A stretch of 64,000 nucleotides of DNA from an uncultured Gemmatimonadales bacterium (GCA_963815325.1 CAWFGG010000002.1:709472-773471), one strand, 5' to 3'; positions 7,976 through 53,973 are shown, counted from the stretch's first letter. The notes: generated by a model not told the origin, from the sequence alone. Made by a program: numbers and translations.

Positions 7976-8113
7976 TGCAATTACGCCTTTCGTGCGGCAG
8001 TACGCGGGCGAGAAGTCTCAATGGTGCCGGGTCCGTCGTCAAGGGCAGGGATGTCTGACGCCTCAGCGGTTGGGCGGCCCGAAGGTTAGGCACGCACGGT
8101 TGCCCATCCCAGG

Positions 8114-8254
8114 CTGTCATCCCGAGCAAAGCGAGGGATCTCCTCAACCGTGCCCCGAACGCGGGCTCGTCCACGTAACCTACCGGCATGAGTCAGTAAG
8201 ATCCCTCGGGCGCTTCGCACCCTCGGGATGACAATCGGAGAAATACCCGACCTC
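8114..8254 (+). mobile_element. MITE-like / REP-like palindromic element, copy B (141 bp)
   Basis: Same termini and orientation as copy A. By-eye alignment shows the left ~50 nt and right ~57 nt nearly identical and the centre divergent. One compensatory a-t to g-c change in the 'gggcac ttc gtgccc' mini-hairpin. Confidence 0.6.
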
Positions 8255-8328
8255 TAAATCTTCCCACCTACCGCAGTCCGCGGCTGAAGCCGCGACTCGG
8301 CTGCTGTCGCTAAAGCGACTCCGCACCC

Positions 8329-8349
8329 CTCCCTACTCCCTACTCCTCC
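8329..8349. repeat. short heptamer tract CTCCCTA CTCCCTA CTCCTCC
   Basis: Read directly. Related to the CTCCTTA tract next to copy A. Confidence 0.6.
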
Positions 8350-8425
8350 CGCCTTCCCGCCTCGCCGTGTGCAAATCTCCCCCCTAGACGCATCTCCCGC
8401 GCGAACAGTCACTCAGGAGGACGAA

Positions 8426-10693
8426 ATGTACCGCCAACTGACGCTCGTTGCCGCCCTGACGGTGGGGGCCGCGACGGCCTTGCCCGCCCAGGGGTGGGTT
8501 GAACTCGAGACCCCCCGGAGGCCCGGCATCGTCATGGGGCCGGTCGTTCGGGTGAGTTCCAACGTCCGGACCACCATCGATGGGCGCGTCGCCCGGGTCG
8601 AGGTGGAGGAGCAGTTCAGAAACACCGGCCCCAGCATCGCGGAGGGGAGTTACCTCTATCCTCTGCCCAAGAACGCCGTGTTCAGCGACTTCTCGCTCTG
8701 GATGGGCGAGCAGGAGATCACCGGTGAGATCATGAACGCCGATGAGGCGCAGAAGATCTACGAGGACATCGTGCGCCGGCTGAAGGACCCTGCCCTGCTT
8801 TCCTTCGAAGGCCACGGTCTCATTCGCGCTCGGGTCTTCCCCATCCAGGCGGGTGAGACGCGCCGGGTGAAGCTCCGCTACACGCAGGTGCTCGACCGGG
8901 CCGGCGATGCCCTCCGGCTGCGTTACAGCATCGGGCCGCGCCATCACGGACCCGAGCACGGCCAGGGTGGAACCGACGCCTCCTTCCGCGACAACTTCAG
9001 CTATCAGGTGACAGTTCCGAGCGCGGATGACATCGGGACACCCTATTCGCCGACCCACCCGATCGAGACCGAACGACGGAACGGCCGGTTGATCGTCACG
9101 TTGAGCCCCAATGCCGTCGGCGACGTAGATCTCTTCATTCCGCTCCGCCGTGGTTTGGTCGGCACCAGCATCCTGACCCACGCCCCTGGTGGTGAAGACG
9201 GCTTCTTCATGCTGCTCCTCGCCCCGCCGCACAACGAGACGGGCCAAGTGGTCCCGCGCGACCTTTCGCTCGTGGTGGACGTCTCCGGCTCCATGTCGGG
9301 GGACAAGTTGGAGCAGGCCAAGCAGGCTATGACGCAGGCCTTGGGGACGCTGCGCCCGGCGGACCGTTTCCAGCTCGTCGCGTTCTCCTCCGGCATCCGC
9401 CATTTCCGTGAGGGGTTCACCCCTGCCACGGCGGCCAACCTTGCTCAAGCCCGCCGATTCGTGGCAAATCTGACCGCGACCGGAGGCACCAATATCGCCG
9501 GCGCGCTCGACGCGGTACTCGGCAGCGCGGTTGCCGAGGACCGGTTGCCCATCATCGTGTTCATGACCGATGGGTTACCCTCGGTTGGCGAGCGGGAACC
9601 CGATCGTATCGCCGAAGCAGCGTCGAATCGGATCGGACGCGCGCGCATCTTCACCGTCGGCGTCGGCCACGACGTCAACACCTATCTGCTCGACCGGCTC
9701 GCGGTCGAGGGGCGCGGAAGCGCCGAATACGTCGCACCAGATGCCGACGTGGAGGTCGCGGTAGGATCGCTGCTGTCCAAGATTCAATTCCCGGCGCTGG
9801 TCAACCTGCGGATCGTCAGCTCGCCGGTCGAGTTCCGCCAGGACTACCCGGCCGAGCTTCCCGACTTGTTCTACGGCGAGGAATTGGTGGTGTTCGGCCG
9901 GTATCATGGCCAGGCCACCGGGACCGTGGTGATCGAAGGCGAGCGGAACGGCCGTCGAGAGCGGTTCACCGCCCGGGCAGCCTTCCCACGAAGCGAGCAT
10001 GACAACGACTACATCCCGCGGCTCTGGGCCGCGCGCAGAATCGGCGACCTGACCCGGACCATCCGGATCGAGGGATCAACCCCCGACCTGATCAACGAAG
10101 TGCGGGACCTGGGCCTTCGGTACGGCATCATCACGGAGTACACGTCCTACCTGGTGCTGGAACCGGGCATGCAACCAGGGGTGGCTCGGGATGACATGCG
10201 CCAGAACGCGCCCATGACCCCAGCGCTGCAAGGCGGGGCGAGACAGGCCCGGGCCCAAACCGGCCGGGAAGCATTCAAACGGGCCGAGGCCAGCTCGGAG
10301 ATGGCGAGTGCCAAGACCCTGGCCGCGGCAGATGCGGTCGCGGAAAGCCGCATGCGGGCCATAGGCGGCCTGTCGGATGAGCGGGAGGGAGATGCGGTGA
10401 ACGCCCGCGAGGCCCAGGTTCGCCGAGTAGCCGGCCGCCTGTTCGTGCGGCACGGTGCGACGTGGACCGACGCACGGCACAGCGATAGCCTCACGGTCAT
10501 CGAGGTCGCGCCATTCAGCGATGCCTACTTTGCCCTGGTCCGGGCACTGCCCGAGATCAGACCTTACCTTTCAACCGACGGCAGCGTGTTGGTCGCCGGC
10601 CGGCAGGTCAGCATCAAGTTCGCAGCAGCCGGGCTCGAATCGATGTCGGAACGCCGCATCAACCAGGTGGTTCGTATGTTTCGAGGTACATGA
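8426..10693 (+). CDS. secreted VIT-domain + von Willebrand factor A-domain protein
   Basis: ATG 8426 is preceded by 'aggagg' 6 nt upstream; the track ORF starts at GTG 8369. Signal peptide 'MYRQLTLVAALTVGAATALPAQG'. VIT-like N-terminus 'ARVEVEEQFRN...YLYPLP...FSLWMGE'. vWA MIDAS motif 'VVDVSGSMSG'. Confidence 0.85.
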   Translation: MYRQLTLVAALTVGAATALPAQGWVELETPRRPGIVMGPVVRVSSNVRTTIDGRVARVEVEEQFRNTGPSIAEGSYLYPLPKNAVFSDFSLWMGEQEITGEIMNADEAQKIYEDIVRRLKDPALLSFEGHGLIRARVFPIQAGETRRVKLRYTQVLDRAGDALRLRYSIGPRHHGPEHGQGGTDASFRDNFSYQVTVPSADDIGTPYSPTHPIETERRNGRLIVTLSPNAVGDVDLFIPLRRGLVGTSILTHAPGGEDGFFMLLLAPPHNETGQVVPRDLSLVVDVSGSMSGDKLEQAKQAMTQALGTLRPADRFQLVAFSSGIRHFREGFTPATAANLAQARRFVANLTATGGTNIAGALDAVLGSAVAEDRLPIIVFMTDGLPSVGEREPDRIAEAASNRIGRARIFTVGVGHDVNTYLLDRLAVEGRGSAEYVAPDADVEVAVGSLLSKIQFPALVNLRIVSSPVEFRQDYPAELPDLFYGEELVVFGRYHGQATGTVVIEGERNGRRERFTARAAFPRSEHDNDYIPRLWAARRIGDLTRTIRIEGSTPDLINEVRDLGLRYGIITEYTSYLVLEPGMQPGVARDDMRQNAPMTPALQGGARQARAQTGREAFKRAEASSEMASAKTLAAADAVAESRMRAIGGLSDEREGDAVNAREAQVRRVAGRLFVRHGATWTDARHSDSLTVIEVAPFSDAYFALVRALPEIRPYLSTDGSVLVAGRQVSIKFAAAGLESMSERRINQVVRMFRGT

Positions 10694-11190
10694 GTCACGA
10701 CATCGGTCAGTTGTACCAAGAGTACCACGGGTCCCTCGTCCGGATGCTCTACCGCCGGACGGGGGATCCGGACCGGGCGGAAGACCTGGCACAGGAGGTC
10801 TTCGCCCGGGCGGTGCAGGCTCCGCCAAGGAATCCACGACCGTGGCTGTTTGCAGTCGCGCTCAACCTGGTGCGGGAGGACGGACGCAAGGCCGTCCGGC
10901 AGGGCCGGCGGCTGGAACTCTACCGGGCGGAGACGACGCGCTCGGCGCCGGCGCCGGATACGGAAATGGAACGGGACGAGCAAATCGCCGACGTGCGTGC
11001 CGCGCTCGACCAGCTTACCGAGCGCGATCGGGAGGCACTCTTGCTCAAGGCGGAAGGGTTCAACTACGAAGAGATCGCCGCGACGCTGGGGCTGGCAAAG
11101 GGAGCCGTGGGAACGACACTCGCACGGGCCCGCCGCCGATTGGTCGAGGCGTATCACGGTGAAGGACGGAAAGACAATGCCGCACCCTGA
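10690..11190 (+). CDS. ECF (sigma-70 family, group 4) RNA polymerase sigma factor
   Basis: 166 aa. Region 2 'DRAEDLAQEVFARA' and region 4 HTH 'NYEEIAATLGLAKGAVGTTLARARRRL'. ATG overlaps the VIT-vWA stop (ATGA at 10690-10693). Confidence 0.85.
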   Translation: MSHDIGQLYQEYHGSLVRMLYRRTGDPDRAEDLAQEVFARAVQAPPRNPRPWLFAVALNLVREDGRKAVRQGRRLELYRAETTRSAPAPDTEMERDEQIADVRAALDQLTERDREALLLKAEGFNYEEIAATLGLAKGAVGTTLARARRRLVEAYHGEGRKDNAAP

Positions 11191-12436
11191 AGAAGGAATG
11201 TTCCACGCGTTGCTCGACGGAGAGTTGACTCCCGACGAGGTGCGCATCATCGAAGCCCACGTGGCGTCGTGCGCCGCGTGCGCCGGACGGCTCGAGGACG
11301 TGCGCGCCATTTTCGACGAGTCCACGGGCCTGGTGGAACGGCTGGAACTACCAGAACGAAAAGCCTCGGGCTCCTCCGCTCCACCACCCGACCTGGTCCG
11401 CGCCAAGCGAGCCCGGACCATCCCGAGTCAACGGCTCCGCACCTTGGCATGGGCGGCCACGGTGGTCATCGCCGCCGGCGCAGGATACCTGGCGGGCGAT
11501 TGGCGTCACCGCGTGCCCGGTCAAACACCGGCCTCCGCGATGAATGAGAGGGGCCAAGTTCCGGCCGTTTCCACTGAAGAGGCGATGCGCGACGAGGCAG
11601 CGAAAGCGGTAGTCCAGGCGGAACTCCCGAGGGCTAGCGAGGCGCGGCCTGCCGAACAAGAGCAACAGCGGGCCACGGGAAAGGACGACGACGCTCCGGT
11701 CCCCACCACCCCGGCGCCGGTCGATGCCGTGGTGGGCGGCGCGGCCCAAGGTGGAGCGGCGCGAGGCAACGTGAGCGGCAAGCCCGGACCCGAGTCTCCC
11801 GCGGCGCGCCGTGACCGTCTCGCCCAGGTCGCGAGGGCCGAGGAGCGCGATGCGGGGCGCGCCGCCGATGCGCCGGCGGTCCAAGCACCCGGAGCGGATG
11901 CCGCGGCATCCCGGGCCGCTGTCTCGGGGCTGGTCGAGGACGCCCGGCGCGAGGCCGACTTTGCGAAGGCCGCCGATGCGGCGCCGGCCGAAGGATTCAG
12001 GGCCCAGGTGACTCGACCCCGGCCCGTGACCCTGGAGGAGGCGGTCGATGCCTTGAACGGAGCGATCCGCCTCGTTGATGGTGCCTCGCTCACCCGCGTG
12101 GAGACGAGCGATCCGCCGGCCGTGCCCTGGGCCGAAGTCGAGGGTCCGCTGGTCAGGGTGGTCTATCGACTCGAAGGCGCCGAGGTCGTGCTCAGTCAGG
12201 TTCGGGTGAATCCGGGACGCGAGGGAGTCGCGGAACGAGCCGCCGCCAAGCGCGCGCTGGACGCCGTTGGGGATGTTGGCACGGTCCCACACCTCGCTCC
12301 CGGCGATACCCTCGTCGTAGCAGAACCGGGCGGCGGGTACCGGTTGTGGTGGCTGGACGGTTCCCGCCGGATCCTGTCACTGTCGGGGCCACTCGGCCAA
12401 GATGCCCTGAAACGGATCGTCGATCGGATCCGTTAG
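11177..12436 (+). CDS. zf-HC2 anti-sigma factor, single-pass membrane protein with a conserved C-terminal periplasmic domain (paralog 1)
   Basis: ATG 11177 lies inside the long track ORF 10850-12436 and overlaps the sigma gene end by 14 nt. 'HVASCAACAGRL' matches the H-x3-C-x2-C motif. TM segment 'LAWAATVVIAAGAGYLAG'. Ala/Arg-rich linker, then a C-terminal domain shared with the next two genes. Confidence 0.8.
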   Translation: MPHPEEGMFHALLDGELTPDEVRIIEAHVASCAACAGRLEDVRAIFDESTGLVERLELPERKASGSSAPPPDLVRAKRARTIPSQRLRTLAWAATVVIAAGAGYLAGDWRHRVPGQTPASAMNERGQVPAVSTEEAMRDEAAKAVVQAELPRASEARPAEQEQQRATGKDDDAPVPTTPAPVDAVVGGAAQGGAARGNVSGKPGPESPAARRDRLAQVARAEERDAGRAADAPAVQAPGADAAASRAAVSGLVEDARREADFAKAADAAPAEGFRAQVTRPRPVTLEEAVDALNGAIRLVDGASLTRVETSDPPAVPWAEVEGPLVRVVYRLEGAEVVLSQVRVNPGREGVAERAAAKRALDAVGDVGTVPHLAPGDTLVVAEPGGGYRLWWLDGSRRILSLSGPLGQDALKRIVDRIR

Positions 12437-12518
12437 GCCTGTCTCGGTCCTCGCCCGGCCCCGGTCCCGCGTGGTATCTTTGTAGGACCCCTTTGATTCA
12501 GGACCAGACGCCCGGACG

Positions 12519-13454
12519 ATGGACCACGTCACCGAAGAGACCCTCAAGAGCCTCCTGGAGAACCGGATGAGCCGGGTCGCCCAGGCACAGGTGCGTCATC
12601 ACATCAGCACCTGCTTCCGCTGCGAGGAAAAGGTGCGGCAGTGGCGGGCATCCATCGACGCACTGAGTGACGCTTCGGAGAAGGCCAGGACGCCCTACCC
12701 CAAAACCGAGGGCTCCGAGCCGACCATCCTCGTTCCAGCGAAGCCTGTCATTCTATCGAAGCATTCGCGATGGGCTGTCCGCTCGGTGTTGGCTGTCGCG
12801 GCGGTGCTCGTCGTGGCACTCGCCGTCGAGACCATCCGGCAAGACCGCCAACAAGAGGGTGGTGAGGGAGCCCAGGCAGGATCGCTCATCCAACGAAGCC
12901 AGGCGGCTCTTCAAGCCGGTATGGACAGCACGCTCGCCGTCCGGGGCTCTGCCCTCCCGGTACCTCCGACCGAGAGCGGCACATCGCAGGAGCCCACCGC
13001 TACGCCACCCGCCCCGGTTCGATCGGACAGCGCAAGTCCCGCCGCCGTGCCGAGACCGGTGCCGTTGGAGCCGGCGGCACCAACGGTCACGGGGCCCGGG
13101 TTCACCATGCTGACCGTGCGTGAGGCCATCGAGCGAACCGGCGGGCCGATCCTGCTCGTGCGGGGCCTCCTGCCGGACCACCTCGAGGTTGCCCCGGCAA
13201 GCGCAGTTCCGGGTGCCCTGCCCGGAAGCGAAGTGATCCGGGTGGTGTACCGGGAGCCGGGCGGCCGGATCTTGCTTCTGGACCAGCAGAAGATCCCCGA
13301 GGCCTACCGGTCCGGGCTCGCGGCCGACACCCTCATCGATTCGGACCCGGGTGGAAGGTCCATCGCCATCTGGGTGGGCGGCGATACCCGCGTCACCCTC
13401 TCGGGCCGGATAGACCCCGAAACCCTCATGGTCTTCGTGCGCCGGGTCGACTAG
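12519..13454 (+). CDS. zf-HC2 anti-sigma-like membrane protein (paralog 2)
   Basis: 311 aa. 'HISTCFRCEEKV', TM segment 'AVRSVLAVAAVLVVALAV', Pro-rich linker, C-terminal block 'EVIRVVYREPGGRILLLDQQ...TLSGRIDPETL'. Confidence 0.8.
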   Translation: MDHVTEETLKSLLENRMSRVAQAQVRHHISTCFRCEEKVRQWRASIDALSDASEKARTPYPKTEGSEPTILVPAKPVILSKHSRWAVRSVLAVAAVLVVALAVETIRQDRQQEGGEGAQAGSLIQRSQAALQAGMDSTLAVRGSALPVPPTESGTSQEPTATPPAPVRSDSASPAAVPRPVPLEPAAPTVTGPGFTMLTVREAIERTGGPILLVRGLLPDHLEVAPASAVPGALPGSEVIRVVYREPGGRILLLDQQKIPEAYRSGLAADTLIDSDPGGRSIAIWVGGDTRVTLSGRIDPETLMVFVRRVD

Positions 13455-13490
13455 CCGGGAGAAGAGGACCCGGTCCGATCGCCCGTCATT

Positions 13491-13524
13491 GGGGCCGTGA
13501 GCTAGATCACGGCCCCTTTTTCTT
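13491..13524 (+). terminator. canonical Rho-independent terminator
   Basis: Perfect 10-bp stem 'ggggccgtga'/'tcacggcccc', 6-nt loop, then 'tttttctt'. Confidence 0.8.
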
Positions 13525-13543
13525 GCCAGCGACATCATAAGGT

Positions 13544-14446
13544 ATGAAGCACCCCCCCGACGACGCCCAGGCCCACCTCGACCACCTGGAACTGGCTGCG
13601 GCCGTCGCGGGAAGGCTGGATCAGGTGAGCACACAGCGTCTGGTGCGGCATCTCCAGCAATGTGAAGCCTGTGCCACCGAGGCATACGCATGGGGTATCC
13701 ACCTCGATGACGAGGGCAACTTGAAGACGAGCCAGCCGTCCTCGATGGCGGCCCCTCATCGGATCCTCTTCCCGGTGGGTCATGCCGGCTACGACATGCC
13801 GACCCGGAGGCCGAAGCGCTCTCCGGCCGTGTGGTTGGCGGGGGTCTTGGTCATTACGGCGCTGGGGGCGGCGCTGTTGCTGCTGCCGCCGGCCGACGCG
13901 TCGCGGCCCTTGGTCGCCCACGATTCATCCGCCCCCGCCGCCGCGGGCTCCACGAATCTGCTCGCCGGCATGTCGCCGCCCATCGTCGCCGAAGCACCCT
14001 CCCTCTCCTCAGACCAAGAGTTCCCGGCGTCAGTGGCGCAAGCGATGGTGACGGCAGAAGTCGTGACCATGCCGCAGTTCCGGGTCATCACCCCGGAAGA
14101 GGCCAAGGCCAGGCTCGCCGGGTCACTCCGGACCATTCCCGCCCTGAGTCTCACGCGGGTCGAACTCGGGCCCGGCGCCGCCGTGCCACTCGCGCTGCCC
14201 GACATCGAGGTGATTCGTCTGGTCTATCAGTCTCCGACCGGGGAACTGTTACTGCTCGATGAACAGCGGCTGCCCGTGAACGCGGACCTCGGCGACGTGG
14301 GCATCGCCCCGGGCGACACGCTCATCTACAGCGACACGCGCGGCATCACCGTCGCGACGTGGCTCGCCAGCCGCACACTCAGACTGTCGCTCGCGGGGCA
14401 AATGGATCATGAGGCCATCCGCCAAATCATGACCGGCATCCGGTAG
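13544..14446 (+). CDS. zf-HC2 anti-sigma-like membrane protein (paralog 3)
   Basis: 300 aa. 'HLQQCEACATEA', TM segment 'AVWLAGVLVITALGAALLLL', C-terminal block 'EVIRLVYQSPTGELLLLDEQ...LSLAGQMDHEAI'. Confidence 0.8.
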   Translation: MKHPPDDAQAHLDHLELAAAVAGRLDQVSTQRLVRHLQQCEACATEAYAWGIHLDDEGNLKTSQPSSMAAPHRILFPVGHAGYDMPTRRPKRSPAVWLAGVLVITALGAALLLLPPADASRPLVAHDSSAPAAAGSTNLLAGMSPPIVAEAPSLSSDQEFPASVAQAMVTAEVVTMPQFRVITPEEAKARLAGSLRTIPALSLTRVELGPGAAVPLALPDIEVIRLVYQSPTGELLLLDEQRLPVNADLGDVGIAPGDTLIYSDTRGITVATWLASRTLRLSLAGQMDHEAIRQIMTGIR

Positions 14447-14464
14447 CCCACACTCGCTCCGCCC

Positions 14465-15001
14465 TCAGCCCTCTGGCGTTCGATCCCGAGGGATGGTGGT
14501 GATGCCCATCCCAACAACAAAGAATCCGTAGCCTGGATCGGCACCCGCAAGGAAACGGCGTTCGACATCGAATCGGAGCCCGATCGACGGTGCGATTTGG
14601 ATGATCGTTCCTGCTCCCGCATAGACATTGAAGGCACCACCACCGCCACCTTGCGCGACCGCGGCCAGCACCGACGCGCCTCCGCGGGCGAACACGGTCA
14701 CCCGAGACAGCCGGGCGGGCACGACCAATCCCACGTCGGTCAAGAACACCAGAGCCCCGTCGCTGAAGCCGGCCGGAAAGAATGAGAATGCGAAGTCCGC
14801 CCCGATGCCTTCCTTCGCGAGGTTGGTCGCTCGTAGGGTGAGGGTCGATGTGGCGAACTCGTCGAACCAGCCCACCCGCTGAACCGAACCACCAATCGCC
14901 CAACCGGCCGGCATTCGGGTGGGGGAGGGTCCCTGGGCCGCGAGCGTGCCCGACAAGGTCCAGGGAAGAAACAGCGTGAGCATGAAGGTGGCCTGCCGCA
15001 T
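14465..15001 (-). CDS. small secreted, Gly-rich, probable outer-membrane beta-barrel protein
   Basis: Start chosen at 'MRQATFMLTLFLPWTLSGTLAAQ' (signal peptide) inside track ORF 14465-15115. Alternating hydrophobic pattern. Function unknown. Confidence 0.55.
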   Translation of the reverse strand: MRQATFMLTLFLPWTLSGTLAAQGPSPTRMPAGWAIGGSVQRVGWFDEFATSTLTLRATNLAKEGIGADFAFSFFPAGFSDGALVFLTDVGLVVPARLSRVTVFARGGASVLAAVAQGGGGGAFNVYAGAGTIIQIAPSIGLRFDVERRFLAGADPGYGFFVVGMGITTIPRDRTPEG

Positions 15002-15041
15002 GGGATCGTCCTGTGTCAGGGTCACCGACACGTTGCACCGG

Positions 15042-15062
15042 ACCCGTGACCTACCCGTGACC
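15042..15062 (+). promoter_or_regulatory. two direct repeats 'acccgtgacc' with 11-bp periodicity, plus an inverted 'ggtcac' at 15020-15025, in the divergent intergenic region
   Basis: 15042-15051 and 15053-15062 are identical. They sit where a -35 would be for a possible -10 'tatctt' (15067-15072), 30 nt upstream of the BTAD regulator ATG. Confidence 0.35.
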
Positions 15063-15101
15063 CACCTATCTTTGAGGGATGCCAGGCCAGACGAGCCCTG
15101 A

Positions 15102-17834
15102 ATGATCAGGCTCAAGACCCTCGGGTCCCTCGAGCTTCTGGGCGCCGGGACGTCCGATTGTGAGGCCGTCCTGCGTCAGCCCAAGCGGCTGGCCCTCCTG
15201 ACCTACCTGGCCTGCGCCGCGCCGCGCCGCTTTCATCGGCGCGACTCCCTGCTTGCTCTCTTCTGGCCGGACCTCGACACCTCGCACGCCCGCGGCGCAC
15301 TACGCCGGGCGTTGTACTTCCTGAGAAATGCCCTCGGTGATGACGTCGTGGTCGGACGGGGCGAAGAGGAGATCGGCGTCGACGACGACGTGCTCTGGTC
15401 GGACGTCCGGGCCTTCGAGCGCGCACTGGCCGACGGCCGGCGCGACGAAGCGCTCGGGCTCTATCACGGCGATCTGCTCGAGGGGTTCTTCATCAGTTCC
15501 GCACCGGACTTCGAGCGGTGGCTGGACACCGAGCGCGCCGCCCTCAGGACCGCAGCGGCCCGGGCGGCGTGGTCGATCGCCGAGGAAATGGAAACGACAG
15601 ACCCTCGGAAGTCGCTCGAGTGGGCCAAGCGCGGAGCCGATCTCACTCCATACGAGGAAGAACCGCTTCGCCGCCTGATGGAGTTACTCGACCGCCAGGG
15701 CGACCGCGCAGCCGCGCTGTCGTCCTTCACCGCATTCGAGCGGCGGCTGGCCGAGGAGTTCGAGCTTACGCCGTCGCAGGAGACCGTAACGCTGGCCGAC
15801 CGGATTCGGGCGCAGAGCGCTACACCGGAAGTCGTGCCAGGCGAGACAGTCCCGGTCGCGCCGTCACCGGACCTCGTTGCGGTCCTGCCATTCACCGTAT
15901 CGGCCCCGGACAAGTACGCCTACCTGGCCGAGGGCATGGTCGACCTGCTGAGTACCAAGCTGGATGGCACCCGCGCGCTGCGCGTGCTGGACCCGCGAGC
16001 ACTCCTCGGCTGGCTGGCTCAACACGGGCAGCCAACGGCAGTGCCCGGTGACGTCTCGGCGCGCTTCGATGCGGCCCACGTTTTGACTGGCAGCGTGGTA
16101 GTAGGCGGCGATCGCGTTCAGCTCTCGGCCACGCTGTACGATCGGCGTGGCACGGTCGAGCTGGTGGCGGAGGCCGCGGGTGAGGCCGAGAATGAACTGT
16201 TCGATTTGGTCGACGAGATCGCGCGCCAGCTGTTGGCCTCCCGGAGTGCCGGGCCGGCCGGCCGGGTGGCCCGACTCGCGGCGCGCACGACCCGGTCACT
16301 GCCGGCCCTCAAGCATTATCTGGAAGGCGAGCATGCATTCCGAGGGGGAGAGTACTTCCAGGCAATTACGGCATATCAACAGGCCGCGGCCACCGATCCG
16401 GATTTCGCACTGGCGCACTACCGGTTAGCAGCGGCGCTCGCCGCGTGTGCCATGCCCGAAGGCGCGCGCCTCGCGGCAAATCAGGCACAGACACATCGCT
16501 CACGCCTCGCGCCTCACGATCGCTTGTGGTTGGACGCCCAGTTCGCGTGGCTCGAGGGACGCTCAACCGAGGCCGAGCGATTGTACTCGGACATTGTTGC
16601 CCTCTACCCCGATAACGTCGAGGCCTGGTATCTCCTGGGCGACTTGTTGTTCCATCACAATCCGTACCGCGGTCGGTCCATCACCGAGGCGCGAGTGCCG
16701 TTGGAACGGGCCATCGCGCTCGATCCGGATCACGTGAGCGCCATGGGGCACCTCGCGCGGATCGCGGCGCTCGAGGGCCGTTCGGACGATGTCGCCGATC
16801 TGGTGGACCGGATCTTCGTCACGAACCCAGCGGGCGACCAGGGGCTCCCCATGCGCGCCCTAAGGGCGTTTACCGTGTCCGACCTTCGTGAAGAGTCGGA
16901 TGTGCTCGACGGATTGAAGAATGCCCGTGCCCTGACGATCGGGATCGCCTTCTCGGACGTGGCCCTATATTCGGGCAACCTGGCAGGGACCGACCGCTTC
17001 GCGCGACAGTTTCTCGCGGTGGCCCGATCACCGGAGCTTCAGGCGCTGTGCCACATCATCCTGGCCCACATGGAGGCCATGCGCGGACGGCACGCCCTCG
17101 CGCTCGAGGCATTGGACAGGGCACAGGAGCTCGACCGCGCCTGGGCGCTCGAGATGCGGGGACTGTTCGCCGCCTGGCCGTTCTTCATCATTGAACCCGA
17201 CCAGGTGGCCCGGATCCGTGACGAGCTGGGCGAGTGGGATGCCGCGGCGACCCCACCGAGCCCACAGCTGCCGTTACGCGTCCACAACGACCAGCACCCC
17301 CATCTCCGTTTCTACCTTCTCGGACTTCTCAATGCCCGGCTTGGTCATTTCGATCGAGCGAGTGAGTGCGCGGCTGCCCTCGAGTCGGCAGCTGAGGCCG
17401 GAGCAGTTGGCGCATTTCCGGCATCGCTCGGTGCCGGGGTCAGGGCCCGGATCGCCTGGGAAGAGGGAGATCACGCGAACGCCCTACAGGCGCTCGAGGC
17501 CGATCGCCCGGAACTCTGGTTTCAGCAGGCGGTGAGCTCTCCCTTTTTCGGCCGGATTCTCGAACGCTTCATGCGGGCCGACTTGCTTTGGAGCCTGGGA
17601 CGACACGCGGAATCGGCGTCGTGGTATCGGAGTCTGGTCCAACGCTCGCCGTTTGAGCTGGCGTACCGCCCCATGGTCGAGGCCCGCCTGTACGAGCTGG
17701 CCCTGGAAGACGGCGACGCCGCGGCGGCCCGCACCCACGAGATCCGCGTGCGTGCCATGTTGGAGGATGCGGACGCTCGGCTCCTCGATACCATGGCGAG
17801 GTATGCGCCAACGCTGTTCGCTGGAGGGAAATGA
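15102..17834 (+). CDS. SARP/BTAD-family transcriptional regulator with a C-terminal TPR region
   Basis: 910 aa. OmpR-type winged helix 'LRQPKRLALLTYLA...SLLALFWPD', then BTAD 'DVRAFERAL...ALGLYHGDLLEGF...ERW', then a 'LVAVLPFTV...' module, then TPR-like repeats. Confidence 0.8.
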   Translation: MIRLKTLGSLELLGAGTSDCEAVLRQPKRLALLTYLACAAPRRFHRRDSLLALFWPDLDTSHARGALRRALYFLRNALGDDVVVGRGEEEIGVDDDVLWSDVRAFERALADGRRDEALGLYHGDLLEGFFISSAPDFERWLDTERAALRTAAARAAWSIAEEMETTDPRKSLEWAKRGADLTPYEEEPLRRLMELLDRQGDRAAALSSFTAFERRLAEEFELTPSQETVTLADRIRAQSATPEVVPGETVPVAPSPDLVAVLPFTVSAPDKYAYLAEGMVDLLSTKLDGTRALRVLDPRALLGWLAQHGQPTAVPGDVSARFDAAHVLTGSVVVGGDRVQLSATLYDRRGTVELVAEAAGEAENELFDLVDEIARQLLASRSAGPAGRVARLAARTTRSLPALKHYLEGEHAFRGGEYFQAITAYQQAAATDPDFALAHYRLAAALAACAMPEGARLAANQAQTHRSRLAPHDRLWLDAQFAWLEGRSTEAERLYSDIVALYPDNVEAWYLLGDLLFHHNPYRGRSITEARVPLERAIALDPDHVSAMGHLARIAALEGRSDDVADLVDRIFVTNPAGDQGLPMRALRAFTVSDLREESDVLDGLKNARALTIGIAFSDVALYSGNLAGTDRFARQFLAVARSPELQALCHIILAHMEAMRGRHALALEALDRAQELDRAWALEMRGLFAAWPFFIIEPDQVARIRDELGEWDAAATPPSPQLPLRVHNDQHPHLRFYLLGLLNARLGHFDRASECAAALESAAEAGAVGAFPASLGAGVRARIAWEEGDHANALQALEADRPELWFQQAVSSPFFGRILERFMRADLLWSLGRHAESASWYRSLVQRSPFELAYRPMVEARLYELALEDGDAAAARTHEIRVRAMLEDADARLLDTMARYAPTLFAGGK

Positions 17835-17903: not shown

Positions 17904-19106
17904 TCAGCGCCGTTGCCCGGCGCCGTTGCCTTGTTCCTCATCGTGGGCCAGTATGAGCCCTTCCGGCCCGATGAGTACCACCTGCCGTTCCATCCGTCGC
18001 ATGAAGCTGACGAACGTGCTGGCAACGCCAGTGTCAAAAATGGTTCCGGCTCCCTGTTCGATATACCGGAGCGCTTCGGCCGGTTCCCAGGCGGGACGAT
18101 AGCTCCGCGGCGTCCGGAGCGCGTCATAGGCATCGCACACCGAGATCACCTTGCTCACGTAGTGGAAGTCACGGGTGTAGTGCAGATCGGGATACCCGTG
18201 GCCATCCGGCCGGCCGTGGTGCTCGTAGGCCGCGATGGCAGCCAGCTCGAACTCCGACTCGCGCCGGAGCAAGAGCCGGGCACCTTCCTCTGGATGCCGT
18301 TGGACCAGCTTCCGATCCGCTTTCGAGAGGGTGTGTTGCTGCAGCAGTTTTTGGGGCACGCGGCTCATGCCGATGTCATGCAGCAGTCCGGCGGTCCCAA
18401 AGGCGCGGATGTCCTTTGATCCCATGCCGAGCGATTCGGCGAGCGTCATCGCCAGGACGGCCACGTTGATGGCGTGCATGGTGGAGTAGTCGTCGTGCGA
18501 CTGGAGGTCGAGGAGCGGGATCAGCACCTCGCCTTCCGCCCGCATCGCGACGGCCAGCGATCGGATCACCGCCTCCACTTCGTCAAGCGGGACCATCTCC
18601 TCGAGTGCAGCTCGCTGGTACAGCCACCGCACGGTTTCGGTCTCTTCGCCGAGGCGATACGGAATCGTGGCGGTCCGGAGGAACTCATCGGACAGCTCGA
18701 GGTCTCCGTCTCCGGTCACGCGGAGCATGCCGGAGGTGATGCCGGGTCGAGCCGGAAGTTTTTCGGACGGGCCGGTCGTGCCCAAGCGCGAAAAGACATC
18801 GTCGAGGAATTGGCCGTACGCTTCGCGTGCTACCTCGGGTGCAAACTCCATGCGTTGGGCCCCGAGCGCGCCGAACCGTTCGGCCCACGGCCATTGATGC
18901 ATGTCGTGCAGGGTGCGCTGGCCATAGATGACCGAGCCGTCGATGAAGGAGAACGTCGCGGGCGATTCCTCGTCGAGGAGTTCACGGAGTTTTTCGAATG
19001 ATCGATCGACGACCCGGGCGCGCGCCGGGTGGCCCTCGCCGTAGAGCTGCATGGCGGACAACACATGGGCCATGGAGTGCAGGAAGAGGACGGGGCGCTC
19101 ACTCAT
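17904..19106 (-). CDS. HD-GYP domain protein (putative c-di-GMP phosphodiesterase/receptor)
   Basis: 400 aa. 'HAINVAVLAMTLA', 'AGLLHDIGM', 'HHGRPDGHGYP'. About 190-aa N-terminal domain of unknown function. Confidence 0.85.
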   Translation of the reverse strand: MSERPVLFLHSMAHVLSAMQLYGEGHPARARVVDRSFEKLRELLDEESPATFSFIDGSVIYGQRTLHDMHQWPWAERFGALGAQRMEFAPEVAREAYGQFLDDVFSRLGTTGPSEKLPARPGITSGMLRVTGDGDLELSDEFLRTATIPYRLGEETETVRWLYQRAALEEMVPLDEVEAVIRSLAVAMRAEGEVLIPLLDLQSHDDYSTMHAINVAVLAMTLAESLGMGSKDIRAFGTAGLLHDIGMSRVPQKLLQQHTLSKADRKLVQRHPEEGARLLLRRESEFELAAIAAYEHHGRPDGHGYPDLHYTRDFHYVSKVISVCDAYDALRTPRSYRPAWEPAEALRYIEQGAGTIFDTGVASTFVSFMRRMERQVVLIGPEGLILAHDEEQGNGAGQRR

Positions 19107-43828: not shown

Positions 43829-44455
43829 GTGCATGAACGAGAGACCGGACTCATCGTGAGCGCGCTCCGGGACCTCAACGAATCGGTTGCGCCGCTGATC
43901 GTGCGGGCCCAGCACGGCGACGCGGCGGCCTTTGCCGACCTCGTTCGGGCCTGCCGGCCCCTGGTCTACCGCTGGTCGGTGGTGGCCTCGGGAGATCCGG
44001 ACGAAGCCGAAGACGTGACCCAGGAGGTGCTAGTGCGGCTCTACCTCTCGCTCGATCGGTACCGAACCGACGCAACCTTCACGACCTGGCTCTATCGTAT
44101 GACGCGCAATGCCGCGACCGACCGGTTCCGCCGGTACCAGAGCCGACTGAGGCTCATCCGATCGAACGAGGCGTTGCCTGGCACCTCGGAGCGCGATCCC
44201 GGCACCAGCCCGTCCGCCGGGGTGCTCGCGACCGAGGCGCGTGGCATCGTCCGCCGATTTCTGGCGTGGCTCCCCGCGCGGCAGCGGCAAGTGCTGGACC
44301 TGGTCGACCTGCAGGACTTCACACCGGCGGAAGCGGCGGACATGCTCGGCCTCGACGGCGGCACCGTCCGGGCCCACCTCCACCGGGCCAGGCGGACCCT
44401 GCGGTCGAAGATCACCGAGCGCTATCCCGAATATGGAAAAGGAGAAGGCGAGTGA
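43829..44455 (+). CDS. ECF sigma factor (second in window)
   Basis: GTG start (alternative GTG 43856). 'DEAEDVTQEVLVRLY', 'FTTWLYRMTRNAATD', region 4 'TPAEAADMLGLDGGTVRAHLHRARRTL'. Confidence 0.85.
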   Translation: MHERETGLIVSALRDLNESVAPLIVRAQHGDAAAFADLVRACRPLVYRWSVVASGDPDEAEDVTQEVLVRLYLSLDRYRTDATFTTWLYRMTRNAATDRFRRYQSRLRLIRSNEALPGTSERDPGTSPSAGVLATEARGIVRRFLAWLPARQRQVLDLVDLQDFTPAEAADMLGLDGGTVRAHLHRARRTLRSKITERYPEYGKGEGE

Positions 44456-44901
44456 CCTGTACCCAGATCCAAGACCAACTGCTCGAGGCCGCTCCATCGG
44501 AATTGCGGGGCGAAGGCGAGTCGGCGGTGGCGCAGCACGTGCGAAGCTGCCCGCGCTGTCGCCAACTGGCCGAGCGGATCGTGGCGGAAGAGCGCCGCCT
44601 CCAGAGTGCCCTGGCCGCGCTCGAGCCACGGCAACCGGTCGATGACGCCGTACGTACCGCCGTCAGGCAGGCGCGGCAGCGCCGGCGACGGCGACGGGTG
44701 TTGGCGGCGGGCCTAGCGGCGGCGGCCATCGCGACCTTTGCCCTCTGGCACAGCGGTCGGTCGGCACTGCCACCCTCTCCGCCACCAACCGCCATGGCCC
44801 AGCCGTTTGTCCAAACCAGTGCGGACCAGAATGTCATCGTGTACCAAACCGCCAACCCCGACATCGTCGTGGTCTGGCTGTATCAACGGAACGGGAGCTG
44901 A
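44452..44901 (+). CDS. zf-HC2 anti-sigma factor (short)
   Basis: GTG 44452 overlaps the sigma TGA (GTGA). 'HVRSCPRCRQLA'. TM segment 'VLAAGLAAAAIATFALW'. Confidence 0.7.
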   Translation: MTCTQIQDQLLEAAPSELRGEGESAVAQHVRSCPRCRQLAERIVAEERRLQSALAALEPRQPVDDAVRTAVRQARQRRRRRRVLAAGLAAAAIATFALWHSGRSALPPSPPPTAMAQPFVQTSADQNVIVYQTANPDIVVVWLYQRNGS

Positions 44902-53161: not shown

Positions 53162-53391
53162 GTTGCCGGAAATTGTCATGAAACCTATAAAGACAGCCCC
53201 AATGCCATCTGAAGATATCTTCATTCTTTGAGCCTGAGCCCTCCTCACGGTTGCCGCTTCGAGCGTTCCGGAACGGCGCCACAGGGGCCTGGGGCATGGA
53301 CATTGCGCCGCTCCTGGCCAGCCTGCGTGCAAGAATGAGAGGCCCCGGCATCTCCCCCTCGAGCACGCTCGACCCGAACCCGGGAGCCCTC

Positions 53392-53973
53392 ATGCTTCGA
53401 GTCCACTACATCCTGGGCGCCGCCTACCTGGCCCTCTGCATCATGTTGCTCCGGGGCTCGGCCTCTCGACCGGAGTTCCTGCCCCATCCGACGGGTACGA
53501 CCCAAATCGTCCCCGCGACCGGCGAGGCCGGCGCATGGTTCGCGAGCATGAAGCCCTATTGCAACGCGGTCGAAGTGGAGACCCGGCAACGGGCCACGCC
53601 CCCACCCGGGACGCTGGAAGGATTGGGCTACAGCGCCGGCTGCTACGCGTTGGGCGGGAAGATCGACCTCGCGCGCGAAACGATCCGACGCGCTCCCGCC
53701 GATCAGCAGTACAAGGCAGCCGGTATTGTGTTCGCTCTGGCGCATCCGGTGGCAGACGCCGGTGACGACAAGTCGGCCGGACCGATCATGGAGCTGGTCC
53801 TGGAGTTCTGGCCCAACCACTACCAGGCACGCTATCACGCCGGGATGTCGTCCTACATCCTCGGCGACGCCGGACGGGCCCGCCTGCATCTCACGCAGTT
53901 CGTCGAGGAGTATCGGCAGAACGACGGCTGGCGCCGGAATGCAGAGGCCGTGCTGCAACGCCTCGGCAACTGA
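53392..53973 (+). CDS. membrane-anchored hypothetical protein
   Basis: ATG 53392 'MLRVHYILGAAYLALCIMLL' (TM) inside track ORF 53251-53973. Stop lies 5 nt before the kinase ATG. Confidence 0.5.
   Translation: MLRVHYILGAAYLALCIMLLRGSASRPEFLPHPTGTTQIVPATGEAGAWFASMKPYCNAVEVETRQRATPPPGTLEGLGYSAGCYALGGKIDLARETIRRAPADQQYKAAGIVFALAHPVADAGDDKSAGPIMELVLEFWPNHYQARYHAGMSSYILGDAGRARLHLTQFVEEYRQNDGWRRNAEAVLQRLGN

What the first reader, a model, noticed from the sequence alone, without database searches (positions are those of the whole stretch)
11177..14446. Array of three paralogous zf-HC2 anti-sigma-like proteins behind a single sigma factor
Three consecutive genes share one architecture.
- Each has an N-terminal H-x3-C-x2-C motif: 'HVASCAAC', 'HISTCFRC', 'HLQQCEAC'.
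- Each has one TM helix and a Pro/Ala-rich linker.
- Each has a roughly 110-aa C-terminal domain with shared blocks.

Shared blocks in the C-terminal domain:
- '[TV]x[ER]EA...' near the start
- 'VIR[VL]VY..P.G..LLLD[QE]Q'
- 'GDTL' or 'DTLI'
- 'L[ST]L[SA]G......[AE][LI]' near the end

Only the first gene is coupled to the sigma gene. One sigma with three potential partners could mean competitive or combinatorial sequestration, decoy anti-sigma factors, or three sensors with different periplasmic specificities. The C-terminal domain is not one I can name.
Basis: seen in the sequence. Interest (0 to 1): 0.6.

Follow-up and report, generated by a model that had tools for sequence, protein, structure and literature searches.

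The report
Three tandem anti-sigma paralogs, one sigma
A Gemmatimonadales bacterium carries one stress-type (ECF) sigma factor gene followed by three intact, selectively maintained copies of its membrane anti-sigma factor, each ending in an unnamed outward-facing domain whose predicted fold resembles the envelope-stress sensor RseB/MucB; this is an unusual variant of an ordinary regulatory module, not a new kind of system.

Summary
Three consecutive + strand genes share one architecture: A1 11177-12436, A2 12519-13454 and A3 13544-14446. Each has an N-terminal H-x3-C-x2-C zinc motif with a fourth His 25 residues upstream, one TM helix, a low-complexity linker and a ~125-aa C-terminal domain. 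C-domain BLASTP E-values are 9e-9 to 5e-23.

The domain has no Pfam or NCBIfam model. It defines a family of about 460 50%-identity clusters. Of 128 full-length representatives, 120 have the same zf-HC2 architecture. All named members are Gemmatimonadota.

An AF2 model (pLDDT 91) finds only RseB/MucB in PDB with high probability. There is no sequence-level support.

The locus is a conserved operon: GTGCAA-N15-GCATCTCC promoter-like motif, then VIT-VWA, ECF sigma and anti-sigma. Of 57 species-level loci, 47 carry one anti-sigma, 9 carry two and none carries three. Three copies occur only in the window's narrow lineage (one NCBI MAG, three metagenome contigs). There, an invariant terminator-like hairpin separates A2 from A3.

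All three genes are under purifying selection (dN/dS 0.2-0.3).

The most likely reading is three functional sensor/anti-sigma paralogs gating one sigma. Binding is not shown. I rate it a new variant of a known kind, of moderate interest.

The parts
8369..8397 (+). Promoter-like bipartite motif GTGCAA-N15-GCATCTCC. It is the candidate autoregulated ECF promoter of the operon.
   Evidence: In 65 loci the motif occurs exactly once per locus, on the + strand, at the operon 5' end (the remaining loci with a sigma ortholog had no match; some end short of the operon's 5' end). It lies upstream of VIT-VWA when that gene is present and directly upstream of sigma when it is absent. Chance expectation in the window is 0.02.
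8426..10693 (+). Secreted VIT + VWA domain protein, the first gene of the operon. The ORF lister starts it at GTG 8369. The likely start is ATG 8426, behind an AGGAGG ribosome-binding site.
   Evidence: Pfam VIT E = 6e-23 and VWA_3 E = 2e-18. The gene is conserved upstream of the sigma gene in about 45 of 80 loci. Its stop overlaps the sigma start by 4 nt.
10690..11190 (+). ECF (group IV) sigma factor, 166 aa.
   Evidence: Sigma70_r2 E = 2e-11 and Sigma70_r4_2 E = 1e-14. TIGR02937 scores 76.7 bits against a cut-off of 42.9. Eighty orthologs at 65-80% identity were found, all in Gemmatimonadales/Gemmatimonadota MAGs.
11177..12436 (+). A1, the type I (sigma-adjacent) ZAS anti-sigma factor. Layout: anti-sigma domain residues 1-~60, TM ~88-107, long Ala/Glu/Arg/Pro linker, C-domain at nt 12008-12433.
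   Evidence: zf-HC2 scores 33.7 bits against a cut-off of 22.2. The C-domain HMM gives E = 4e-40. The 14-nt overlap with sigma is conserved in orthologous loci. dN/dS is 0.23-0.27.
12519..13454 (+). A2, a type II paralog with the same architecture. C-domain at nt 13092-13451.
   Evidence: H3/H28/C32/C35 and W42 are shared with all second-copy proteins. The C-domain HMM gives E = 1e-44. Orthologs follow A1-type genes in 9 of 57 loci after gaps of 38-120 nt. dN/dS is 0.20-0.30.
13491..13521 (+). Terminator-like hairpin: a 10-bp stem with 8 G-C pairs, loop GCTAGA, then TTTTT. It lies 22 nt upstream of the A3 ATG.
   Evidence: Found by the terminator scan and present in the MFE fold. It is 100% identical in L088, L105, L111 and L116, while flanking intergenic DNA diverges and dS exceeds 1 against L088. 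It is a single copy in the window.
13544..14446 (+). A3, the lineage-specific third paralog (type II-like). Zinc motif at H11/H36/C40/C43; C-domain at nt 14069-14443.
   Evidence: The C-domain HMM gives E = 4e-45. zf-HC2 scores 19.2 bits, below the cut-off. Orthologs are found only in L088, L089, L105, L111, L116 and P0031. dN/dS is 0.20-0.28, and 0.11-0.16 for the C-domain. The AF2 model of the C-domain has pLDDT 91.

Best explanation
**What it is.** This is a Gemmatimonadales-specific ECF sigma / class-I zinc anti-sigma (ZAS) signalling operon in which the membrane anti-sigma factor gene has been duplicated twice.

**Transcription.**
- A promoter-like motif, GTGCAA-N15-GCATCTCC, sits at the operon's 5' end. 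I infer that it is recognised by the operon's own sigma.
- It drives VIT-VWA, sigma, A1 and A2 as one transcript.
- A3 follows a strong conserved hairpin with a U-run. It is therefore expressed at a different, probably lower or separately controlled, level.

**Protein layout.** Each of A1, A2 and A3 has three working parts:
- a cytoplasmic His/His/Cys/Cys zinc anti-sigma domain;
- one membrane span;
- a periplasmic ~125-aa beta-rich domain with an RseB/MucB-like predicted fold.

**Proposed mechanism (inferred).**
- All three sequester the single sigma at the membrane.
- Each is inactivated, most likely by regulated proteolysis, when its own periplasmic domain meets its ligand or loses its protective contact.
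- The sigma is therefore freed only according to the combined state of several diverged envelope sensors.
- Because A1 and A2 are in the sigma's own operon, induction also replenishes the inhibitors (negative feedback).

**Shown versus inferred.**
- Shown: paralogy, architecture, conservation of the ligand residues, operon layout, purifying selection, copy-number distribution, and fold similarity.
- Inferred: sigma binding by A2 and A3, periplasmic ligand sensing, proteolytic release, and use of the promoter motif by this sigma.
For: **Paralogy.** C-domain BLASTP E-values run from 9e-9 to 5e-23.

**Architecture is the family norm.**
- 120 of 128 full-length representatives have H-x3-C-x2-C at about residue 28.
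- 100 of 105 members hit Pfam zf-HC2.
- H3, H28, C32 and C35 are invariant or nearly invariant across those 105 members. They also hold in the second-copy proteins, including A2 and A3.
- The type II N-terminal profile's best PDB sequence matches are RsiW and ChrR. Both are non-significant (E = 0.066 and 0.34). The ChrR match covers profile positions 2-40 and chain residues 5-43.

**Operon layout.**
- The sigma-A1 overlap is conserved.
- A1-A2 gaps are 38-120 nt, and no terminator was found between them.
- There is one promoter-like motif per locus, and it tracks the operon's 5' end.

**Purifying selection on all three genes.** dN/dS is 0.20-0.30 overall, 0.07-0.17 for the C-domains, and 0.17-0.22 for the anti-sigma domains of A2 and A3 against the divergent L088.

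**Repeated retention.**
- Two-copy arrays occur in 9 of 57 species loci.
- The three-copy array is kept between genomes only 50-62% identical in protein sequence.

**Periplasmic domain.**
- The AF2 model has pLDDT 91 and pTM 0.86.
- In Foldseek against PDB, the only matches with probability of at least 0.8 are nine RseB/MucB chains. The best has E = 2e-3, and TM is 0.40-0.54 normalised to the query.
Against: **No binding or expression data.**
- No interaction, expression or ligand data exist, and no complex prediction could be run.
- A2 and A3 score below the Pfam zf-HC2 gathering cut-off.
- The A2 N-terminal model is only moderately confident (pLDDT 77, pTM 0.37), and its Foldseek hit to RsiW is not significant.

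**The RseB/MucB similarity is structural only.**
- hhalign against an RseB alignment gives probability 1%.
- The profile search of PDB sequences finds nothing.
- Pfam finds nothing at E<=10.
- TM scores are borderline.

**A3 expression is unresolved.**
- A3 lies 22 nt behind a strong terminator-like hairpin.
- It has no copy of the operon's promoter motif.
- It may therefore be poorly expressed, or controlled by something unrelated to this sigma.

**Phylogeny is weak at depth.** Bootstrap support is 38% for type II monophyly and 30% for an A2+A3 grouping.
Confidence: 0.5

Rival explanations
1. **Built-in RseB model.** Only A1 is the working sigma sequestrator. A2 and A3 act mainly through their periplasmic RseB/MucB-like domains as membrane-tethered modulators. 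They bind the periplasmic linker or domain of A1, or of each other, and shield it from the site-1 protease, as soluble RseB shields RseA. Their cytoplasmic zinc domains are secondary.
For: - The only confident PDB fold matches are RseB/MucB.
- In MucB and RseB, the concave sheets of both domains form the cavity that holds the anti-sigma periplasmic segment (PMC7400510).
- The C-domains are the most constrained part of all three proteins, with dN/dS of 0.07-0.17.
- One locus, L001, keeps a type II TM + C-domain gene without an anti-sigma domain or an adjacent sigma.
Against: - The anti-sigma domains of A2 and A3 keep all four zinc ligands. They are under purifying selection against L088, with dN/dS of 0.17-0.22. 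That is not expected for a dispensable domain.
- A1 itself carries the same C-domain, so the domain is not specific to an accessory role.
- The L001 contig shows split genes, which suggests sequencing frameshifts or a rearrangement.
Confidence: 0.15
2. **Cross-regulation.** A2 and/or A3 are anti-sigma factors for a different ECF sigma encoded elsewhere in the genome. They sit next to this operon only because they arose there by duplication.
For: - A3 is separated from the operon by a strong conserved terminator-like hairpin and lacks the operon's promoter motif.
- The type II anti-sigma domains have their own signature (EEWRD / W42) that is absent from the type I consensus. This could reflect a changed partner.
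- According to the literature, Gemmatimonadetes have many ECF sigma factors associated with class I anti-sigma domains (PMC7406223).
Against: - Type II genes are found directly after the type I gene in all nine two-copy GTDB loci, in L002 and in four further contigs. The gaps are 38-120 nt and suggest co-transcription with this sigma.
- The other ECF sigma in the window (43829-44455) has its own adjacent zf-HC2 partner.
Confidence: 0.2
3. **Decaying duplicates.** A2 and/or A3 are non-functional remnants of recent tandem duplication.
For: The Pfam zf-HC2 scores of A2 and A3 are below the cut-off. A3 lies behind a terminator-like hairpin.
Against: - The ORFs are intact.
- dN/dS is 0.20-0.30 overall, and lower in the domains.
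- Orthologs of all three are retained in a genome only 50-62% identical.
- Zinc ligands and C-domain invariant residues are kept.
Confidence: 0.03

Closest known systems
ECF sigma / class I zinc anti-sigma (ZAS) pairs such as SigW-RsiW (B. subtilis) and SigE-ChrR (R. sphaeroides)
   Same: - A small two-domain ECF sigma is followed by a translationally coupled anti-sigma gene.
- The anti-sigma has an N-terminal H-x3-C-x2-C motif plus an upstream His. My own knowledge, not a tool result, is that ChrR's zinc ligands are H6/H31/C35/C38, the same spacing; the non-significant profile match covers ChrR residues 5-43.
- It has a single TM helix and an extracytoplasmic C-terminal domain.
- The operon has a conserved promoter-like motif that looks autoregulated.
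   Different: - There are three paralogous anti-sigma genes instead of one.
- The C-terminal domain is unrelated in sequence to the RsiW or ChrR (cupin) C-terminal domains and has no family model.
- The operon starts with a VIT-VWA protein.
RseB / MucB (periplasmic regulators of the RseA and MucA anti-sigma factors; LolA-like superfamily)
   Same: - They are the best, and the only high-probability, structural matches of the C-domain model.
- Both sit in the periplasmic compartment.
- Both are linked to an ECF anti-sigma factor.
   Different: - RseB is a separate, soluble, two-domain ~300-aa protein. Here a single ~125-aa domain is fused to the anti-sigma factor itself.
- There is no sequence-level similarity.
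- Which RseB domain the fold corresponds to is unresolved. A non-significant 25-column hhalign match and the terminal strand-helix point to the C-terminal domain.
Systems with paralogous anti-sigma factors for one ECF sigma, e.g. RsiA1/RsiA2 of Sinorhizobium meliloti RpoE2 (from my own knowledge, not checked here)
   Same: More than one paralogous anti-sigma factor is proposed or shown to control a single ECF sigma.
   Different: - Those are small cytoplasmic NepR-type proteins working through partner switching with PhyR-like anti-anti-sigma factors.
- They are not membrane ZAS proteins arranged in tandem with diverged periplasmic domains.

Membership tests
ECF (group IV) sigma-70 factors | Only the sigma-2 and sigma-4 domains are present, and the protein scores above the family cut-off. 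| tested here: met
   Sigma70_r2 scores 44 bits and Sigma70_r4_2 scores 54 bits. TIGR02937 scores 76.7 bits against a cut-off of 42.9. No subgroup equivalog reached its cut-off.
ECF (group IV) sigma-70 factors | An autoregulated promoter lies upstream of the sigma's own operon. | tested here: inconclusive
   The bipartite motif GTGCAA-N15-GCATC(T/C)CC occurs once per locus at the operon 5' end in 65 loci. Recognition by this sigma was not tested.
Class I anti-sigma domain / ZAS (Pfam zf-HC2, PF13490) | An H-x3-C-x2-C motif plus an upstream fourth zinc ligand. | tested here: met
   A1 has H3/H28/C32/C35, A2 has H3/H28/C32/C35 and A3 has H11/H36/C40/C43. H28, C32 and C35 are invariant and H3 is conserved in at least 90% of 105 family members.
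Class I anti-sigma domain / ZAS (Pfam zf-HC2, PF13490) | The score exceeds the Pfam gathering cut-off of 22.2 bits. | tested here: inconclusive
   A1 scores 33.7 bits (met), A3 scores 19.2 bits and A2 scores 12.4 bits (both below). At family level, 100 of 105 members hit at E<=0.1, and the A1-A2 N-terminal BLASTP gives E = 3e-6.
Class I anti-sigma domain / ZAS (Pfam zf-HC2, PF13490) | A helical anti-sigma domain fold that binds sigma-2 and sigma-4 of the cognate ECF sigma. | not testable with these tools
   The A2 N-terminal model is helical (helices 6-13 and 19-55) but has pLDDT 77 and pTM 0.37. Its best Foldseek hit is RsiW at E = 3. No complex prediction was available.
Class I anti-sigma domain / ZAS (Pfam zf-HC2, PF13490) | The gene is adjacent to, and co-transcribed with, an ECF sigma gene. 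| tested here: met
   A1 overlaps sigma by 14 nt. A2 follows after 82 nt with no terminator between them. A3 follows after 89 nt but behind a terminator-like hairpin, so for A3 the feature is only partly met.
RseB/MucB (Pfam MucB_RseB PF03888 and MucB_RseB_C PF17188) | A sequence match to the family models or to an RseB profile. | tested here: not met
   No Pfam hit appeared among 34 C-domains at E<=10 or 105 full-length members at E<=0.1. hhalign against an RseB alignment gives probability 1%. The profile search of PDB sequences returned 0 hits.
RseB/MucB (Pfam MucB_RseB PF03888 and MucB_RseB_C PF17188) | Fold similarity to solved RseB/MucB structures. | tested here: inconclusive
RseB/MucB (Pfam MucB_RseB PF03888 and MucB_RseB_C PF17188) | A separate, soluble, two-domain periplasmic protein of ~300 aa with a signal peptide. 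| tested here: not met
   Here a single ~125-aa domain sits at the C-terminus of a TM anti-sigma protein.
RseB/MucB (Pfam MucB_RseB PF03888 and MucB_RseB_C PF17188) | Binds the anti-sigma periplasmic segment and lipid or LPS signals. | not testable with these tools
   This requires biochemistry.

The most novel reading that the evidence does not exclude
The unnamed C-terminal domain is an RseB-type module fused to the anti-sigma factor itself. The paralogs interact through these domains, each shielding another's (or its own) juxtamembrane cleavage site. One ECF sigma would then be released only when several distinct envelope signals coincide. That would be a hard-wired combinatorial gate built from tandem anti-sigma paralogs, with the invariant hairpin setting the dose of the third subunit.
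Probability: 0.12. Interest if true: 0.65.

Novelty: new variant of a known kind. Interest (0 to 1): 0.4.

Why it matters
ECF sigma / anti-sigma pairs are normally treated as one-to-one switches. This locus differs in three ways.

- **A natural copy-number series.** The same operon exists with one, two or three diverged anti-sigma paralogs for a single sigma, and each paralog is under selection. That makes it a tractable case for asking how several sensors are integrated on one sigma factor.
- **An unmodelled domain family.** The periplasmic domain defines about 460 clusters at 50% identity. Every member that carries a source name is from Gemmatimonadota. Its predicted fold points to the RseB/MucB envelope-stress sensors. 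This gives a first functional lead for an abundant soil phylum in which, as far as my literature search shows, no anti-sigma factor has been characterised.
- **A testable regulon handle.** The conserved promoter-like motif gives an immediate way to test the regulon.

None of this overturns current understanding. It extends a known kind of system.

Tried and rejected
**Tools unavailable**

**Null results**
- The search for related loci with the diverse C-domain alignment failed because it had no conserved stretch. I used the sigma alignment instead.
- The word-indexed protein search found only 15 C-domain homologs and 5 N-terminal homologs. The exhaustive HMMER search showed the family is much larger.
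- The C-domain profile search of PDB sequences returned no hits.
- hhalign against an RseB alignment was not significant. That alignment had low diversity (>=82% identity), which limits the test.
- Pfam at E<=10 on 34 isolated C-domains gave only scattered chance hits.
- The sigma-70-type promoter scan of 8000-15300 found none.
- Rfam at gathering thresholds found nothing in the whole window.
- Literature searches found no description of this family or of any Gemmatimonas anti-sigma factor.

**Ambiguous or partly useful results**
- The A2 N-terminal model is helical but of low confidence, and its fold search was uninformative.
- The metagenome scan for the hairpin stem returned 35 contigs. Only 3 are this locus; the others are unrelated hairpins.
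- The NJ bootstrap on the C-domain alone does not resolve the order of the duplications.

**Rejected explanations**
- The compositional-similarity explanation is rejected on shuffle z-scores of 13-32.
- The pseudogene explanation is rejected on dN/dS.

Full report
**1. Observation check**

| Gene | Coordinates | Length | Relation to previous gene |
|---|---|---|---|
| ECF sigma | 10690-11190 | 166 aa | start overlaps the VIT-VWA stop by 4 nt |
| A1 | 11177-12436 | 419 aa | overlaps sigma by 14 nt |
| A2 | 12519-13454 | 311 aa | 82-nt gap |
| A3 | 13544-14446 | 300 aa | 89-nt gap |

- The quoted motifs HVASCAAC, HISTCFRC and HLQQCEAC are present.
- Each protein has one hydrophobic span preceded by basic residues, which implies an N-in, C-out topology.
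- Each has a Pro/Ala-rich linker and a C-terminal domain.

The similarity is real, not compositional.
- C-domain BLASTP with composition correction gives E = 5e-23 for A2-A3 (40% identity), 2e-14 for A1-A3 and 9e-9 for A1-A2.
- Smith-Waterman scores lie 13-32 standard deviations above shuffled controls.
- The N-terminal regions of A1 and A2 also match (E = 3e-6).
- The block 'VIR[VL]VY...LLLD[QE]Q' is literal only in A2 and A3. A1 is a looser match and carries a ~20-residue insertion.

**2. What the proteins are**

*Sigma.* It has Sigma70_r2 and Sigma70_r4_2 domains and passes the generic ECF model TIGR02937. It passes no subgroup equivalog.

*Zinc anti-sigma domain.*
- A1 passes Pfam zf-HC2 (33.7 bits; cut-off 22.2).
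- A3 (19.2 bits) and A2 (12.4 bits) do not pass on their own.
- The family context settles the question. An exhaustive HMMER search with a C-domain profile found 461 representatives of 50%-identity clusters (322 at E<=1e-10), and the domain is almost always at the C-terminus.
- 120 of 128 full-length representatives carry H-x3-C-x2-C at about residue 28.
- 100 of 105 members hit zf-HC2.
- H28, C32 and C35 are invariant, and H3 is conserved in at least 90% of members.
- My own knowledge, not a tool result, is that ChrR's zinc ligands are H6/H31/C35/C38, which is the same spacing. The type II N-terminal profile matches ChrR residues 5-43 over profile positions 2-40, though not significantly.
- That profile's best PDB sequence matches are RsiW (E = 0.066) and ChrR (E = 0.34). 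Both are weak but top-ranked.
- A3 and its orthologs keep a His at -25, in the motif H-[VL]-D-H.

*Taxonomy.* Every member that carries a source name comes from Gemmatimonadota MAGs. The names are 'zf-HC2 domain-containing protein', 'anti-sigma factor', 'anti-sigma factor RsiW' or 'hypothetical protein'.

**3. The C-terminal domain**

- No Pfam or NCBIfam model matches it. Pfam gave nothing for 105 full-length members at E<=0.1 or for 34 isolated C-domains at E<=10, and NCBIfam gave nothing for the window's own proteins.
- A profile search of all PDB sequences finds nothing.
- The AF2 model of the A3 domain, built on a 12-sequence alignment, is confident: pLDDT 91 and pTM 0.86. Its elements run short strand, helix, six longer strands with one short intervening helix, then a C-terminal helix.
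- Foldseek against PDB returns RseB and MucB chains as its top six hits (E from 2e-3 to 3.6e-2, probability 0.99-1.0, TM 0.43-0.54 normalised to the query).
- Three more RseB chains have probability 0.80-0.85. Every other hit has probability of 0.28 or less.
- RseB and MucB are the periplasmic partners of the anti-sigma factors RseA and MucA. They have a LolA-like N-terminal half-barrel and a smaller C-terminal domain made of a six-stranded and a two-stranded sheet plus a helix. The two domains together form the cavity that holds the anti-sigma periplasmic segment (PMC7400510).
- Profile-profile comparison with an RseB alignment is not significant (probability 1%). Its only local match pairs the last strand and helix of my domain with RseB 288-312.
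- I therefore claim fold-level resemblance only. I do not claim family membership, and the RseB domain it corresponds to remains unresolved.

**4. Genomic context and distribution**

*Orthologous loci.*
- A scan of one genome per GTDB species with a sigma alignment returned 80 loci with sigma orthologs at 65-80% identity. All are Gemmatimonadales or Gemmatimonadota MAGs.
- Six-frame HMM and phmmer mapping shows a conserved core of sigma followed by an overlapping A1-type gene. A VIT-VWA gene precedes the sigma in about 45 loci.

*Copy number.*
- Among 57 loci with at least 3.5 kb downstream of sigma, 47 have one C-domain anti-sigma, 9 have two, 1 has no detected C-domain, and none has three.
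- Typical two-copy operons read VIT-VWA, sigma, a 358-aa zf-HC2 protein, a 344-aa paralog after 38 nt, then two small OMP beta-barrel genes.

*Three-copy arrays.* They exist outside the window only in the following.

| Locus | Source | Protein identity to the window |
|---|---|---|
| L088 | NCBI MAG GCA_013003805.1 | A1 51%, A2 62%, A3 ~50% |
| L105, L111, L116 | JGI metagenome contigs | 83-95% |

*Phylogeny.*
- An NJ tree of the C-domains separates sigma-adjacent copies (type I, including A1) from second copies (type II). A2 and A3 both fall in type II.
- Bootstrap support for the deep nodes is weak: 38% for type II monophyly and 30% for A2+A3. The A2 and A3 ortholog groups each get 100%.
- Independent support that A3 is type II comes from the invariant Trp of the type II anti-sigma domain (EEWRD / AYAWG). 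It is shared by A2 and A3 and absent from the type I consensus.
- A3's highest C-domain identities are to the A2 ortholog group.
- My reading is that the type I / type II split is old and the A3 copy arose later in a narrow lineage.

**5. Selection**

Codon-level comparisons (NG86) give the values below.

| Region | dN/dS |
|---|---|
| A1, whole gene | 0.23-0.27 |
| A2, whole gene | 0.20-0.30 |
| A3, whole gene | 0.20-0.28 |
| C-domains | 0.07-0.17 |
| TM + linker segments | 0.17-0.56 |
| Anti-sigma domains of A2 and A3 vs the divergent L088 | 0.22 and 0.17 |

None of the three is a decaying duplicate.

**6. Operon signals**

*Promoter-like motif.*
- A bipartite motif, GTGCAA-N15-GCATC(T/C)CC, occurs exactly once in each of 65 loci, always on the coding strand.
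- It lies 55-60 nt upstream of the first start codon of the operon.
- It sits before VIT-VWA where that gene is present (window 8369-8397, followed by AGGAGG and ATG 8426). It sits directly before sigma where VIT-VWA is absent.
- This is the behaviour expected of an autoregulated ECF promoter, but recognition by this sigma is inferred.
- No copy precedes A2 or A3.

*Terminators.*
- No terminator-like site lies between A1 and A2.
- Between A2 and A3 lies a 10-bp, 8-GC hairpin followed by TTTTT (13491-13521). It ends 22 nt before the A3 ATG.
- This 30-nt element is identical in all four other three-copy loci, including L088, where synonymous sites are saturated and the rest of the spacer has diverged.
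- A3 is therefore either expressed by partial read-through or from an unidentified promoter. Either way its dosage is uncoupled from A1 and A2.

**7. Mechanism**

*Best-supported reading (confidence about 0.5).* Three functional membrane ZAS anti-sigma paralogs act on one ECF sigma.
- Each has a diverged periplasmic RseB/MucB-like sensor domain, so several envelope inputs converge on the sigma.
- A1 and A2 are replenished by the sigma's own operon.

*Rivals.*
- A2 and A3 act mainly as tethered RseB-like protectors of A1 (0.15).
- A2 and/or A3 regulate another sigma in trans (0.2).
- A2 and/or A3 are decaying duplicates (0.03; disfavoured by selection and retention).

Sigma binding, ligand identity and proteolytic release are all untested.

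**8. Comparison and novelty**

- The system works like a standard ECF / ZAS module (SigW-RsiW, SigE-ChrR) and meets that family's sequence-level criteria at family level.
- It resembles RseB/MucB only in predicted fold and fails the sequence tests, so I do not file it as a member of that family.
- Literature searches found no description of this family, and none of any Gemmatimonas anti-sigma factor.
- I rate it a new variant of a known kind. The new features are an unmodelled periplasmic domain and a natural series of one, two or three tandem anti-sigma paralogs.
- Interest is 0.4. It is a good experimental entry point but not a conceptual surprise.

Noticed in passing
window 53327-53355 (+), with genes 53392-53973 and 53979-55841: A second exact copy of the operon's promoter-like motif (GTGCAAGAATGAGAGGCCCCGGCATCTCC). 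It lies 37 nt upstream of a 193-aa membrane protein with no Pfam family, which is followed by a Ser/Thr protein kinase (Pkinase E = 1.6e-44). Chance expectation for the motif in the window is 0.02. This is a candidate regulon member of the sigma.
   Followed up: partly
window 13491-13521 (+); also L088 2581-2610 and the A2-A3 spacers of L105, L111 and L116: The A2-A3 hairpin and its U-run, including the loop GCTAGA, are 100% identical between genomes whose flanking proteins are only 50-62% identical. There are no compensatory changes. This is more constraint than an ordinary terminator needs. It could be a protein-binding near-palindrome or a regulated attenuator.
   Followed up: partly
window 43829-44455 (+) and ~44266-44901 (+): A second ECF sigma factor (Sigma70_r2 E = 3e-17). 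An overlapping downstream ORF carries HVRSCPRC and a TM helix, so it has its own zf-HC2 anti-sigma partner. That partner has no copy of the C-domain described here.
   Followed up: partly
window 14465-15115 (-): A convergent gene immediately after A3. It has a signal-peptide-like N-terminus from an internal Met (MRQATFMLTLFLPWTLSGTLAAQ) and no Pfam family. It is conserved next to A3 in L089, L111 and L116 (83-91% aa identity, dN/dS 0.14-0.26). In two-copy loci this position is taken by two + strand OMP beta-barrel genes.
   Followed up: partly
L001 9893-10681 (ENA ERZ25039524 contig_9209): A type II TM + C-domain gene with no zinc anti-sigma domain, no adjacent sigma and no VIT-VWA. It is still followed by the two OMP beta-barrel genes and the HI0933-like gene seen in two-copy loci. 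This is either a rearranged or truncated copy or an assembly with frameshifts.
   Followed up: no
window 15102-17834 (+) and 17904-19106 (-): A 910-aa BTAD + TPR transcriptional-activator-like protein and an HD-GYP-type (HD_5) protein flank the array. Relatives of the BTAD protein lie upstream of the operon in L002 and L056. Relatives of the HD_5 protein lie downstream in L009, L059, L067, L070, L078 and L081. The neighbourhood is therefore shuffled but recurrent.
   Followed up: no
L090-L124 (metagenome contigs from the hairpin-stem scan): About 19 of the 35 contigs share a different recurring element around the same stem: TGCCCGTTAGCCTGG-GGGCCGTGAC...GTCACGGCCCC. It sits in unrelated soil contigs with no anti-sigma genes. 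It looks like a dispersed or widely conserved hairpin element of unknown nature.
   Followed up: no
P0081 (552 aa) and P0035 (360 aa), from the representatives search: Rare family members place the C-domain internally or near the N-terminus. One member of alignment A6 combines it with a CarboxypepD_reg domain. The domain is therefore occasionally used outside the standard anti-sigma architecture.
   Followed up: no
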